A DNA stretch of 64,000 nt from Escherichia coli O157:H7 (GTDB taxonomy: Bacteria; Pseudomonadota; Gammaproteobacteria; Enterobacterales; Enterobacteriaceae). Positions 12,001 to 15,000 of this stretch are shown one piece after another (the stretch's first letter is position 1; each line of letters begins with the position of its first letter). The position numbers are program-made. Location: the NCBI RefSeq assembly GCF_013167455.1, contig NZ_CP038328.1; one strand, given 5' to 3'.

Positions 12001-15000
12001 TTGTTGATCGCCGCATCCACACGTAACAGCGTCTCTTCCTCATCAGGACGCCCCATAATGATGATTTTATCCACCAGAAAGGCTTCCTCTCCCGGAGCCC
12101 ATCCCCAGACATACATCTCAAAACGGTTTCGCTGCGAGTCAATGCCCGCCGTCAGATAAACCACCCGGGCAGGCACCGCCGCCGTGTAACGCACCACCTT
12201 ATCCATCAGTACCTGGTGATCGAGTTTTTCGCCCACGGCCTCTTCCCAGGTCTCGCCCAGCGTGGTGTTCACAAAGGTTTTCAGGCCGTTGGGATCTTTC
12301 AGTGCATCCAGCCAGTCATAGACAATCTGTACCCAGGTGGTGAACGGACTGTACGCCGTCCAGATATGGAACATGATGGAGCGCGGCGGCGGAATTTCAT
12401 CACCCCGGGCGCTGAAAAACGTCAGACCGTCACGGGTCCACATGCCCGTGTTTTCACAGATCCACCGCCCGTTGCTCTGGTCCAGTTCAGACTGATGGAT
12501 CACGCAGCCATGATGTTCACAGAGGTAGAAAACACTTTCAGGGCTGTCCTTCTCCCATTTAAGCCCAAAAGGCGTGGACTCATCGCCAAATTTCAGATAC
12601 TGCGCCTCCCCACAGTGCGGGCAGGGCACATAAAAACGCATAAAATGCGCCGACTCGTTAGCGGCTTTTTCGATCTGGCAGGTGCCTTTGATTTTAGGCG
12701 TCGAGCCGCGAATGGATTTTGGCCACACCGACCCCTCAATACGCTTATCCCCCAGCAGGGTTGGCGAGCCCTCTTTTTCGACATCCGGCTCGAACGAGGA
12801 AAGTTCGTCATAGCAGACCACGTCAACGGATTTTTCACGGTAGTTTTTGGCGGCAGCGCCGCCCAGGCACCAGAAACCGACGCCCGATGAAAAGCGTTTC
12901 AGCGTGAGAGTATTGTCACGATGTTTACGACCCAGCCATGGGGAAAGGTCTTTCAGGCATGGCACGTTCCGAATCGTCGCCTCCACGTGAGACTTCATAA
13001 AATCTTCAGCGGCAGAATCCGTGGGCTGAAAAAGCAGACTGTTTCGGGATTTATGCTCAATAAAATACCCGCCCCCCCCCCCAGCAACATCTTTGTATAG
13101 CCAACACGGGCAGATTTAATCAGATTAACAGTGCGGATCTGATCATTCCCCATACTGTTCATGATGGCGATCTGGAATGGCAGCGTTTTCCATTCGCCCT
13201 CACCATATGAAGATTCTTTAGGCAGATAATAATTTTGATCAGCCCATTCAACTGGCGTCACCGGCAATGCCCTTATCAGGGGCTGTAATGCAGTTGTGAC
13301 AGCGCTCATCATATTATTCAGTTGTTGCTCTGATATATTCATCAAGTAAATCCGGTAATTTATCCCCTGCCCGCGCACACTGATTTGCCCCCTTAGCAAT
13401 AAGGGTTTTCAGATGGTCAAGATGGCGCGGTGTTAAATCAGGAAACTGTCGCTGCATGGATAAAGGGATGGAATCAAGCGTACTGGATAACGCCATTGCC
13501 AGCTTACTGAGGGCAAAAATACAGAACCCGGTGTCAATCAGTTTTCCTTTTGACACCTCATTTTTTAAGTAAGCGTACAGCGAGGGCCGTATTGACGGGG
13601 ATGTGTTATTCAGCTGGCAGTGCTATGCGCCACGGAAGCAGTTCGCTGACCCGGTTGACCGGCCAGTCTGCTATGACGCCAAGCACATGGCGAAGGTAGC
13701 TTTCTGGATCCACGTCATTCAGTTTGCACGTCCCGATCAGGCTGTACAGTAGCGCTCCCCGCTCACCACCATGATCAGAGCCGAAGAACAGGAAGTTTTT
13801 ACGACCCAGACTGACCGCCCGCAGGGCATTTTCAGCGATGTTGTTGTCGATTTCCACCCAGCCATCGTTCGCATAGTACGTCAGTGCCGGCCACTGGTTA
13901 AGTGCGTACGCGAACGCCTTCGCCAACTCTGAGTGTCGCGACAGGGTCTTCATCTTTTCACGCAACCAGCTTTCCAGGGATTTCAACAACGGTTTCGTTT
14001 TTCGCTGACGTTCAGCAAGCCGCTGCTCTGCCGGCATTCCCCTTATATCCGCCTCTATGGCGTACAACTGACCGATCTGCTCCAGGGCTTCTTCCGTCAG
14101 TGCTGACGGGATGCGGACGTGCACATCGTGGATCTTTCGGCGGGCATGAGCCCAGCAGGCAGCTTCCGTTATCCCACCATTGCGATACAGCTCGTTGAAC
14201 CCGGCGTACGCATCCGCTTGCAGCACACCGCTGAAGCAGGCAAGATGAGTCTGCGGATGGATGCCTTTTCTGTCCGGGCTGTAAGCGAACCACACTGCAG
14301 GTGCCAACGCTGACCCTGCATTGCGGTCATCACGAACATACGCCCACAACCGCCCGGTCTTCGTCTTCTTATTACCCGGCAGCAGTACCTGGACCGGGGT
14401 ATCATCGGCATGGAGTTTGCCGTCAGTCATGACATAGCCATGAAGCGCCTCTTCCAGCGGAGACAGCAGCCGGCAGCATGCATCCACCCAGCCCGACAGC
14501 AGTGAACGCCTCAGCTCCACACCTTGCCGGCCGTATATTTCTGACTGGCGATACAGCGGGGTGTGCTCTGCATACTTCGAGGTCAGCACGCGGGCCAGCA
14601 GCCCCGGTCCGGCGATACCCCGCTCGATGGGCCGCGAAGGTGCAGGTGCCTGCACGATGGCATCGCACTGAGTACAGGCATGTTTTTCCCGTACCGTCCG
14701 GATAACCCGGAAGGCGCTACGCATCAACTCCAGCTGTTCGGCGGTATCCTCGCCCAGATAGCTCAGTGAACCGCCGCAGTTCGGGCAGCACGGCGCCGCA
14801 GGCAACAGTCGCTTTTCGTCACGGGGTAGTGATTCAGGGAACGGCTTACGGGTGCGGGTCTGACGCAACGGACGCTGTACTGCCGGGTCATACACCCTAC
14901 CAGTCAGCGTATCGCTCTCTTTCTGAAGCCGGTTCAGATCGGCTTCCATTTGTGCGATACGGCGGGAGACTTTTTCGGAACGACTGCCGAAGTTCATCCG

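What the first reader, a model, noticed from the sequence alone, without database searches (positions are those of the whole stretch)
13072..13082. 11-nt homopolymer (C11 plus-strand, G11 coding strand) frameshifts terminase large subunit A
Both halves of gpA are recognisable but in different frames across the tract; a tract of 12 or 9 would restore one continuous frame (MLLGGGGGYFIEHK...). Homopolymers of this length are hypermutable and are also a classic sequencing-error site, so this is either a real inactivating lesion, a slippage-prone switch, or an artefact.
Basis: seen in the sequence. Interest (0 to 1): 0.5.

Follow-up and report, generated by a model that had tools for sequence, protein, structure and literature searches.

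The report
Variable poly-G frameshift in prophage terminase
A run of eleven G's breaks the reading frame of the DNA-packaging (terminase) gene of an already crippled E. coli O157:H7 prophage; the run is 9 in the reference strain and ranges from 7 to 14 across public genomes, so this is an ordinary, already annotated, unstable-repeat pseudogene.

Summary
C11 lies at 13072-13082 (G11 on the coding, minus strand). It is the only run longer than 8 in the window, and the next C/G run is 6. It splits a lambda gpA-type terminase large subunit gene (13342..11412) after codon about 90.

The window is prophage Sp4 (CP-933M type) of E. coli O157:H7. Over 33.4 kb it is 99.65% identical to Sakai Sp4, and the only indel is this tract (+2). 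Sakai has G9 and an intact gene in both Sp4 and its twin Sp14.

Complete E. coli genomes carry G8 to G14; exact-product look-ups extend this to G7. Records with at least one exact copy: G9 192, G10 172, G11 31, G12 1. In-frame G12 is not enriched. Near-clonal isolates differ G10 versus G11.

The tract arose from G5-T-GG-T-C (LLGVVGYF) by two T>G changes. The prophage also has nu1 split by ISEc8 and most of its capsid gene deleted.

RefSeq already marks an identical locus "frameshifted".

Best reading: slippage-driven, selectively neutral decay of a hypermutable tract. A miscall of one or two bases cannot be excluded without reads. I found no support for a switch or for programmed frameshifting. 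Interest is low.

The parts
13072..13082 (-). Homopolymer tract: G11 on the coding strand, C11 on the + strand. It encodes the Gly run after LL87 (G88-G91 in the G9 reference).
   Evidence: Read directly. It is +2 relative to G9 in Sakai Sp4 and Sp14.
11412..13342 (-). Terminase large subunit (lambda gpA type) pseudogene, 1931 nt, ATG at 13342 and TGA at 11414-11412.
   Evidence: The repaired (G9) product is 66% identical to lambda gpA over 639 aa. Pfam finds GpA_ATPase at 48-293 and GpA_nuclease at 324-601. An identical locus in NZ_AP026099.1 is annotated 'frameshifted'.
12995..13342 (-). N-terminal reading frame: 90 native residues plus a 25-residue out-of-frame tail, 115 aa, then TGA.
   Evidence: This exact 115-aa product was seen on 98 public contigs.
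11412..13071 (-). C-terminal reading frame (YFIEHK... to the end). The mechanical ORF from an internal ATG is 11412..12998, 528 aa.
   Evidence: phrog_15 terminase large subunit, E = 4.5e-270.
13314..13568 (-). 3' fragment of nu1 (terminase small subunit), 255 nt.
   Evidence: Identical to the last 255 nt of Sakai Sp14 nu1. Matches phrog_57 positions 105-189 of 199.
13569..16008 (.). ISEc8 (IS66 family) inserted in nu1, with an 8-bp target duplication.
   Evidence: Coordinates mapped from the Sakai repeat_region annotation. Reported in PMC2669165.
16009..16269 (-). 5' fragment of nu1 (263 nt match running 16269..16007).
   Evidence: Matches phrog_57 positions 12-106 of 199.
7430..7696 (-). Remnant of the major head protein gene (first ~87 residues only).
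   Evidence: Matches phrog_2353 positions 1-87 of 481. PGAP: 'major capsid protein, incomplete, missing C-terminus'.
6708..7337 (-). Major tail protein gene lacking its 5' end, next to the head remnant (an E-to-V deletion).
   Evidence: Matches phrog_41 positions 42-245 of 245. Same arrangement as Sakai ECs_1110/1111.
8138..11428 (-). Intact W (11222-11428), portal (9633-11225) and head protease/scaffold (8138-9643) genes downstream of gpA.

Best explanation
The tract is a hypermutable mononucleotide repeat inside the terminase large subunit gene of the defective lambda-like prophage Sp4 (CP-933M type) of E. coli O157:H7.

Shown: a G-rich but interrupted codon string, CTG GGG GTG GTC GGG (LLGVVG), occurs in close relatives. 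Two T>G substitutions turn it into an uninterrupted G9 (LLGGGG), the intact state in strain Sakai.

Inferred: strand slippage during replication then changes the run length stepwise. In this window it stands at G11 (+2). Translation leaves the gpA frame after about residue 90, just past the Walker-A-like segment KSARVGYT-K84. It stops after 25 out-of-frame codons, so no ATPase core or nuclease domain is made.

Inferred: this costs nothing further. The same prophage already lacks a functional small terminase subunit (nu1 split by ISEc8) and most of its major capsid gene, so run length drifts without selection.

The exact count in this assembly may be off by one. G10 and G11 are both out of frame.
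For: Tract and frames.

Identity with Sakai Sp4: 33,395 bp at 99.65%, with 114 SNPs and one indel, which is the tract. No SNP lies in 11000-16500. Sakai Sp4 and Sp14 both carry G9 and intact genes.

Length polymorphism in 5,426 complete genomes, as records with at least one exact copy (the two partial-match records that fall in the top identity band are subtracted):
- G9: 192
- G10: 172
- G11: 31
- G12: 1, and G14: 2
- G8: at least 1

A sample restricted to the ISEc8-bearing locus (59 of 290 records) gave G11 3, G10 27, G9 25 and G8 4.

Exact-product look-up, number of contigs: G7 5, G8 52, G9 982, G10 at least 1000, G11 98, G12 30, G13 12, G14 4. Sources include NCBI and Logan assemblies.

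Origin of the tract: O111:H8 and strain Nord122 have CTGGGGGTGGTCGGG. A GGVG intermediate protein exists. Other relatives have GVAG, GVEA or GVYA.

Other lesions: nu1 split with an 8-bp duplication, plus head and tail remnants. PMC2669165 reports the Sp4 nu1 disruption and head defects.

Assembly quality: no indel at any of the ten A8/T8 runs.
Against: No read-level data are available, so G11 in this assembly could be a consensus error. Near-clonal cattle isolates with genome sizes within a few bases of each other differ G10 versus G11 at the same locus: 118 versus 114, 132 and 130, and 138 and 136 versus 140 and 137. That fits technical noise as well as very fast slippage.

The neutrality argument is inferential. 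In Sakai, Sp4 DNA is still packaged, presumably by the Sp14 terminase (PMC2669165), so terminase status in this prophage pair is not necessarily irrelevant.

The slippage mechanism itself is inferred from the length spectrum, not observed.
Confidence: 0.7

Rival explanations
1. Sequencing or assembly artefact. The true tract in the source isolate differs from 11, and the gene may be intact (G9 or G12) or carry the commoner G10.
For: - Runs of 9 or more G/C are error-prone on long-read and short-read platforms (general knowledge). PMC8743559 describes having to correct PacBio homopolymer errors in O157 assemblies.
- Near-clonal isolates differ by one base at this site.
- G11 is a minority state, about 5% at the ISEc8-bearing locus.
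Against: - The tract is the only indel in 33.4 kb against Sanger-finished Sakai, and none of the A8/T8 runs differ.
- The exact G11 product is on 98 contigs from several sources, including NCBI complete genomes and Logan assemblies.
- 31 complete genomes carry G11.
- Long-read errors usually shorten runs (general knowledge), so an over-call by 2 from G9 is unlikely.
- A plus-or-minus-one error to G10 still leaves a frameshift.
Confidence: 0.22
2. Contingency locus. The tract is a selected phase-variable ON/OFF switch of terminase, toggling the packaging competence of the Sp4/Sp14 prophage pair.
For: - Length is highly variable and includes both in-frame states, G9 and G12.
- The Sp14 terminase is proposed to package Sp4 DNA in Sakai (PMC2669165).
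- The tract was created by two same-direction substitutions.
Against: - In complete genomes, out-of-frame G10 (172) is about as common as G9 (192), and G11 (31) far exceeds in-frame G12 (1).
- The length spectrum falls off smoothly from G10 to G14 with no bump at 12.
- In this prophage nu1 and the capsid gene are destroyed, so an ON state gives no autonomous function.
- No report of such a switch was found. One full-text search returned two O157 papers, neither of which mentions this tract.
Confidence: 0.05
3. Recoding. Full-length gpA is still made from the G11 allele, either by -1 ribosomal slippage on the G run or by RNA polymerase adding one G.
For: - A -1 shift or a +1 G in the mRNA would give LLGGGGGYF and a 643-aa product.
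- Long homopolymers are known slippage sites for RNA polymerase (general knowledge).
Against: - The site is not conserved. Relatives encode the region in one frame without a run, and the reference allele is in frame.
- The 136 nt around and downstream of the tract fold no better than shuffles, z = +0.78.
- Any product would lack its partner Nu1 from this prophage.
Confidence: 0.03

Closest known systems
Sakai prophage Sp4 terminase large subunit ECs_1106, and its Sp14 twin ECs_2735 (NC_002695.2)
   Same: The DNA is identical across the terminase region, with no SNP in window 11000-16500. ISEc8 sits in nu1 in the same way. Gene order is the same, and so is the E-to-V deletion.
   Different: Sakai has G9 and an intact gene. 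The window has G11 and two frames.
RefSeq pseudogene OO862_RS05980 in NZ_AP026099.1 (strain 61_150228), and 30 other complete genomes with G11
   Same: 1054 bp from ISEc8 across the nu1 3' fragment into gpA just past the tract are 100% identical, including G11. PGAP annotates the gene 'phage terminase large subunit family protein, frameshifted'.
   Different: No difference was found in the compared stretch. This is the same allele in another record.
Bacteriophage lambda gpA (NP_040581.1)
   Same: 66% identity over the full length. The same ATPase and nuclease domains are present, and the gene order nu1-A-W-B is the same. The tract lies just after the segment aligned to lambda 76-KSARVGYS-83 and K84. 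That this segment is lambda's ATP-binding site is from my own knowledge of the lambda literature.
   Different: Lambda has LLGVYAYF with no homopolymer and is intact.
Homopolymer contingency loci of Neisseria, Haemophilus and Campylobacter (poly-G/C phase variation)
   Same: A coding-region G/C run of 9 or more whose length varies between isolates and sets the reading frame.
   Different: No sign of selection for in-frame states here. The gene sits in a multiply defective prophage. The host is mismatch-repair-proficient E. coli, where such loci are not a known regulatory strategy (general knowledge).

Membership tests
Lambda gpA-type terminase large subunit (Pfam GpA_ATPase + GpA_nuclease) | N-terminal GpA ATPase domain (PF05876) | tested here: met
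   On the G9-repaired product: residues 48-293, E = 9.9e-54.
Lambda gpA-type terminase large subunit (Pfam GpA_ATPase + GpA_nuclease) | C-terminal GpA endonuclease domain (PF20454) | tested here: met
   Residues 324-601, E = 2.7e-71.
Lambda gpA-type terminase large subunit (Pfam GpA_ATPase + GpA_nuclease) | Collinear with lambda gpA, in the gene order nu1-A-W-portal | tested here: met
   66% identity over 639 aa. Neighbouring genes identified.
Lambda gpA-type terminase large subunit (Pfam GpA_ATPase + GpA_nuclease) | One uninterrupted reading frame (a functional gene) | tested here: not met
   G11 shifts the frame after about residue 90. The products are a 115-aa fragment and a start-less C-terminal frame. 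It is a pseudogene of this family.
E. coli O157:H7 prophage Sp4 / CP-933M | Collinear near-identity with Sakai Sp4 | tested here: met
   33,395 bp at 99.65% with one indel.
E. coli O157:H7 prophage Sp4 / CP-933M | nu1 disrupted by ISEc8 (distinguishes Sp4 from Sp14) | tested here: met
   ISEc8 at 13569-16008 with an 8-bp duplication. Reported in PMC2669165.
Phase-variable contingency locus | Hypermutable simple repeat in the coding region whose length differs between isolates | tested here: met
   G7 to G14 seen in public genomes.
Phase-variable contingency locus | In-frame (ON) lengths maintained by selection, with the gene functional when ON | tested here: not met
   Records with at least one exact copy: G9 192, G10 172, G11 31, G12 1. 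The partner gene nu1 and the capsid gene are destroyed in the same element.
Phase-variable contingency locus | Measured high-frequency reversible switching within a clone | not testable with these tools
   Only indirect evidence: near-clonal isolates differ G10 versus G11. This could also be sequencing noise.
Programmed frameshift or transcriptional-slippage recoding site | Slippery site and two-frame organisation conserved among homologues | tested here: not met
   Of the 120 homologues listed, the 87 in which the motif pattern matched encode GVVG, GVYA, GVEA, GGGG and similar variants in a single frame. DNA of relatives has no run.
Programmed frameshift or transcriptional-slippage recoding site | Stimulatory downstream RNA structure | tested here: not met
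   MFE -36.5 against a shuffle mean of -39.3 kcal/mol, z = +0.78.

The most novel reading that the evidence does not exclude
The run may be more than neutral junk. At 11 or more G's the tract plus the following CGGG becomes GGGgGGGgGGGcGGG, a canonical three-tetrad G-quadruplex motif with 1-nt loops. Quadruplex-aware folding jumps from about -28 kcal/mol at G8-G10 to about -46 kcal/mol at G11 and above. Together with its length variability, the tract could act as a structure-assisted, fast-switching element. It would gate terminase supply from the twin prophages Sp4 and Sp14, and so gate cross-packaging and mobilisation of defective O157 prophages. It might also serve as a fast molecular clock for outbreak typing.
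Probability: 0.05. Interest if true: 0.5.

Novelty: already known. Interest (0 to 1): 0.15.

Why it matters
The practical value is modest, in three respects.

1. It flags a site where O157:H7 assemblies disagree with one another (G8 to G14 in complete genomes). Tract length there should not be used as a SNP or indel marker without read support. Pseudogene calls for this terminase differ between records that are otherwise near-identical.

2. Published work proposes that the Sp14 terminase packages Sp4 DNA in strain Sakai (PMC2669165). Many strains carry out-of-frame tracts, so that helper route may be absent in a large share of O157:H7 isolates. This bears on how defective prophages carrying effector genes move.

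3. It does not reveal a new mechanism.

Tried and rejected
- **Locus assignment from coordinates.** I first assigned the two O157 loci (Sp4 versus Sp14) from their chromosomal coordinates. One search showed this was unreliable because records start at different points and differ in orientation. I replaced it with an ISEc8-junction query filtered at E = 1e-299.
- **Identity-band counts.** The band '>=99%' in the short-query searches includes two records with only partial 100% matches. I subtracted them.
- **Literature.** One full-text search (O157 + terminase + homopolymer + prophage) returned ten papers. I checked the two on O157 (PMC5552260, PMC8743559), and neither mentions this tract.
- **Programmed frameshifting.** Rejected. 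There is no conservation and no stimulatory structure.
- **Source of the window.** I did not identify the exact source genome or its sequencing platform. The tools give no platform metadata.
- **Sp14-only census.** Not attempted. Relatives without the poly-G run would swamp the sample.
- **The antisense 59-aa ORF at 12921..13100 (+).** Treated as a mechanical ORF and not pursued.

Full report
**Observation**

Window 13072-13082 is an uninterrupted C11 on the + strand, which is G11 on the coding minus strand. It is the only homopolymer longer than 8 in the 64 kb window. The longest other C or G run is 6, and the A/T runs stop at 8. About 0.02 C-runs and 0.005-0.007 G-runs of this length are expected by composition.

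On the minus strand the frame that starts at ATG 13342 reads MNISEQQ...KSARVGYTKMLLGGG. It then leaves the protein and ends after 25 further codons at TGA 12997-12995. A second frame reads ...GGYFIEHKSRNSLLFQPTD... and runs to TGA 11414-11412.

Rebuilding the gene in silico gave these products:
- G9: a continuous product of 642 aa.
- G12: a continuous product of 643 aa.
- G7, G8, G10, G11, G13, G14: truncated products of 93-116 aa.

**What the gene is**

With the tract set to 9 the product is 66% identical to lambda gpA over 639 residues. It carries Pfam GpA_ATPase (residues 48-293) and GpA_nuclease (residues 324-601). The tract encodes residues 88-91. These lie directly after the segment that aligns with lambda 76-KSARVGYS-83 and K84, which the lambda literature assigns to ATP binding (my own knowledge, not tested here). 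A frameshift at this point removes essentially all catalytic sequence.

**Where the window comes from**

Window 1-33395 aligns to prophage Sp4 of E. coli O157:H7 Sakai (NC_002695.2, 1170000-1203392, opposite strand) at 99.65% identity. There are 114 mismatches and a single 2-base indel, which is the tract. The mismatches cluster at 500-4500 and 18500-19000, and none lies between 11000 and 16500.

Sakai Sp4 (ECs_1106) and its twin Sp14 (ECs_2735) both have G9 and an intact gene reading KMLLGGGGYFIEHK.

**The prophage is otherwise broken**

- nu1 is split by ISEc8 at 13569-16008. The two fragments add up to 510 + 8 nt, which indicates an 8-bp target duplication.
- Only the first ~87 residues of the major head protein remain. 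They sit next to a 5'-truncated major tail gene.
- Asadulghani et al. (PMC2669165) describe these Sp4 defects. They state that all lambdoid Sakai prophages except Sp4 encode intact terminase, and that Sp4 DNA is nevertheless packaged, probably by the Sp14 terminase.

**How the tract arose**

Close relatives have CTG GGG GTG GTC GGG TAT (LLGVVGYF). Examples are O111:H8 strain 08-4455, which is 99.0% identical over the 601-nt query, and strain Nord122. Phage PhiR12_1 has GGA GTC GCC (GVAG).

In the 87 of the 120 listed protein homologues where the motif pattern matched, the four-residue stretch reads as follows:
- GVVG: 28
- GVYA: 27
- GVEA: 15
- GGGG: 6
- a single GGVG intermediate
- smaller numbers of other variants
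- no five-glycine form

Two T>G changes therefore convert an already G-rich string into G9.

**Length variation**

I searched 5,426 complete E. coli genomes with queries of 35 nt + Gn + 35 nt. After subtracting the two records that have only partial 100% matches, the number of records with at least one exact copy was:

| Tract | Records |
|---|---|
| G9 | 192 |
| G10 | 172 |
| G11 | 31 |
| G12 | 1 (AP026092) |
| G14 | 2 (by match length) |
| G8 | at least 1 (by match length) |

A query spanning the ISEc8 junction, filtered so that only the Sp4-type locus passes, found 291 records. In an evenly spaced sample of 59 of these, the counts were G11 3, G10 27, G9 25 and G8 4. In that sample EDL933 and Xuzhou21 are G9, TW14359 is G10, and the RM8376 reference-material strain is G8. 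Sakai itself is G9.

An exact-sequence look-up of the predicted products in a 15-billion-protein collection gave these contig counts:

| Product of | Contigs |
|---|---|
| G7 | 5 |
| G8 | 52 |
| G9 | 982 |
| G10 | at least 1000 |
| G11 | 98 |
| G12 | 30 |
| G13 | 12 |
| G14 | 4 |

Sources include NCBI and Logan assemblies. These product counts are biased. Full-length products must match over 642 residues, and PGAP gives no protein for pseudogenes. The DNA census carries more weight. Both show a single peak at 9-10 with tails on each side and no excess at the in-frame length 12.

**Real or artefact?**

For a real allele:
- The window has no other indel against Sanger-finished Sakai in 33.4 kb, including at ten A8/T8 runs.
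- G11 recurs in 31 complete genomes and on 98 contigs from several sources.

For noise:
- Near-clonal cattle isolates with genome sizes within a few bases of each other differ at the same locus. Strain 118 is G11 while 114, 132 and 130 are G10. Strains 138 and 136 are G11 while 140 and 137 are G10.
- O157 assembly papers report having to correct homopolymer errors.

This cannot be settled without reads. I put about 0.2 on the count being wrong here, and about 0.1 on the true state being in frame.

**Mechanism and rivals**

The best-supported reading is replication slippage in a run that became long enough to be unstable, drifting without selection in a prophage that can no longer package itself.

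- **Selected ON/OFF switch.** This is not supported. Out-of-frame G10 is as common as G9, G11 far exceeds G12, and the partner genes are dead.
- **Programmed frameshifting or transcript slippage.** This is not supported. The run is absent from relatives, the reference allele is in frame, and the surrounding RNA folds no better than shuffles, z = +0.78.

**Status in databases**

An identical stretch in NZ_AP026099.1 (1054 bp, from ISEc8 across the nu1 3' fragment into gpA just past the tract, with G11) lies in a locus that PGAP annotates as a frameshifted terminase pseudogene. The G10 allele in TR01 is annotated the same way. The 115-aa fragment is deposited under several accessions. PHROG family phrog_3925 matches the fragment end to end, including its out-of-frame tail. 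The one full-text search I ran, and the two O157 papers from it that I checked, turned up no discussion of this tract.

**Verdict**

The feature is an ordinary, already annotated homopolymer frameshift in a decaying prophage. Its interest lies mainly in being an unreliable site in O157:H7 assemblies.

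Noticed in passing
window 13057-13082 (minus strand: G11 followed by CGGG): With 11 or more G's the tract plus CGGG forms GGGgGGGgGGGcGGG, a canonical three-tetrad G-quadruplex motif. Quadruplex-aware ViennaRNA folding goes from about -28 kcal/mol (G8-G10, two tetrads) to about -46 kcal/mol (G11 and above). Relevance to instability or to sequencing errors is untested.
   Followed up: partly
window 13569-16008, flanks 13314-13568 and 16009-16269: ISEc8 (IS66 family) splits nu1. The fragments sum to 510 + 8 nt, giving an 8-bp target-site duplication. This is the known Sp4 lesion (PMC2669165).
   Followed up: yes
window 6708-7696: The major head protein gene keeps only ~87 codons and abuts a 5'-truncated major tail gene. 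This implies a deletion from E to V. The twin prophage Sp14 shares it, which suggests it predates the duplication or conversion that made the twins.
   Followed up: partly
window ~16900-20900 (endolysin ORF 17914-18447, +): The lysis cassette and pchA are on the opposite strand to nu1/A in Sp4, but are co-directional with them in Sp14. One end lies next to partial IS629/IS1203 copies, which suggests an IS-associated inversion.
   Followed up: partly
window 500-4500 and 18500-19000: 95 of the 114 mismatches to Sakai Sp4 lie in the tail and tape-measure region, and 14 lie in a 500-bp patch near the lysis genes. These look like recombination patches exchanged with other lambdoid prophages.
   Followed up: no
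window 23727-23976 (minus strand): Three prophage-borne tRNA genes: Arg-tct, Arg-tcg and a CAT-anticodon tRNA. ARAGORN calls the third Met, while the Sakai annotation calls it ileZ.
   Followed up: no
window 12995-13342 product versus PHROGs: phrog_3925 ('terminase large subunit', 150 positions) aligns with the whole 115-aa frameshift fragment, including its 25 out-of-frame residues. This PHROG family appears to have been built from frameshifted pseudogene fragments.
   Followed up: no
L001 (NZ_CP018241.1 strain 319, Sp14-type locus) 6039-7969: In strain 319 the Sp14-type gpA also has G11. PGAP additionally splits it into a 'missing C-terminus' piece and a separate 'gpA endonuclease subunit' CDS. 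This hints at a second lesion in that copy.
   Followed up: no
window 42239-42341: A 103-nt stretch is 90% identical to the sequence at the far end of Sakai Sp4, next to tRNA-serT. It is probably the attachment-site repeat marking the other prophage boundary.
   Followed up: no
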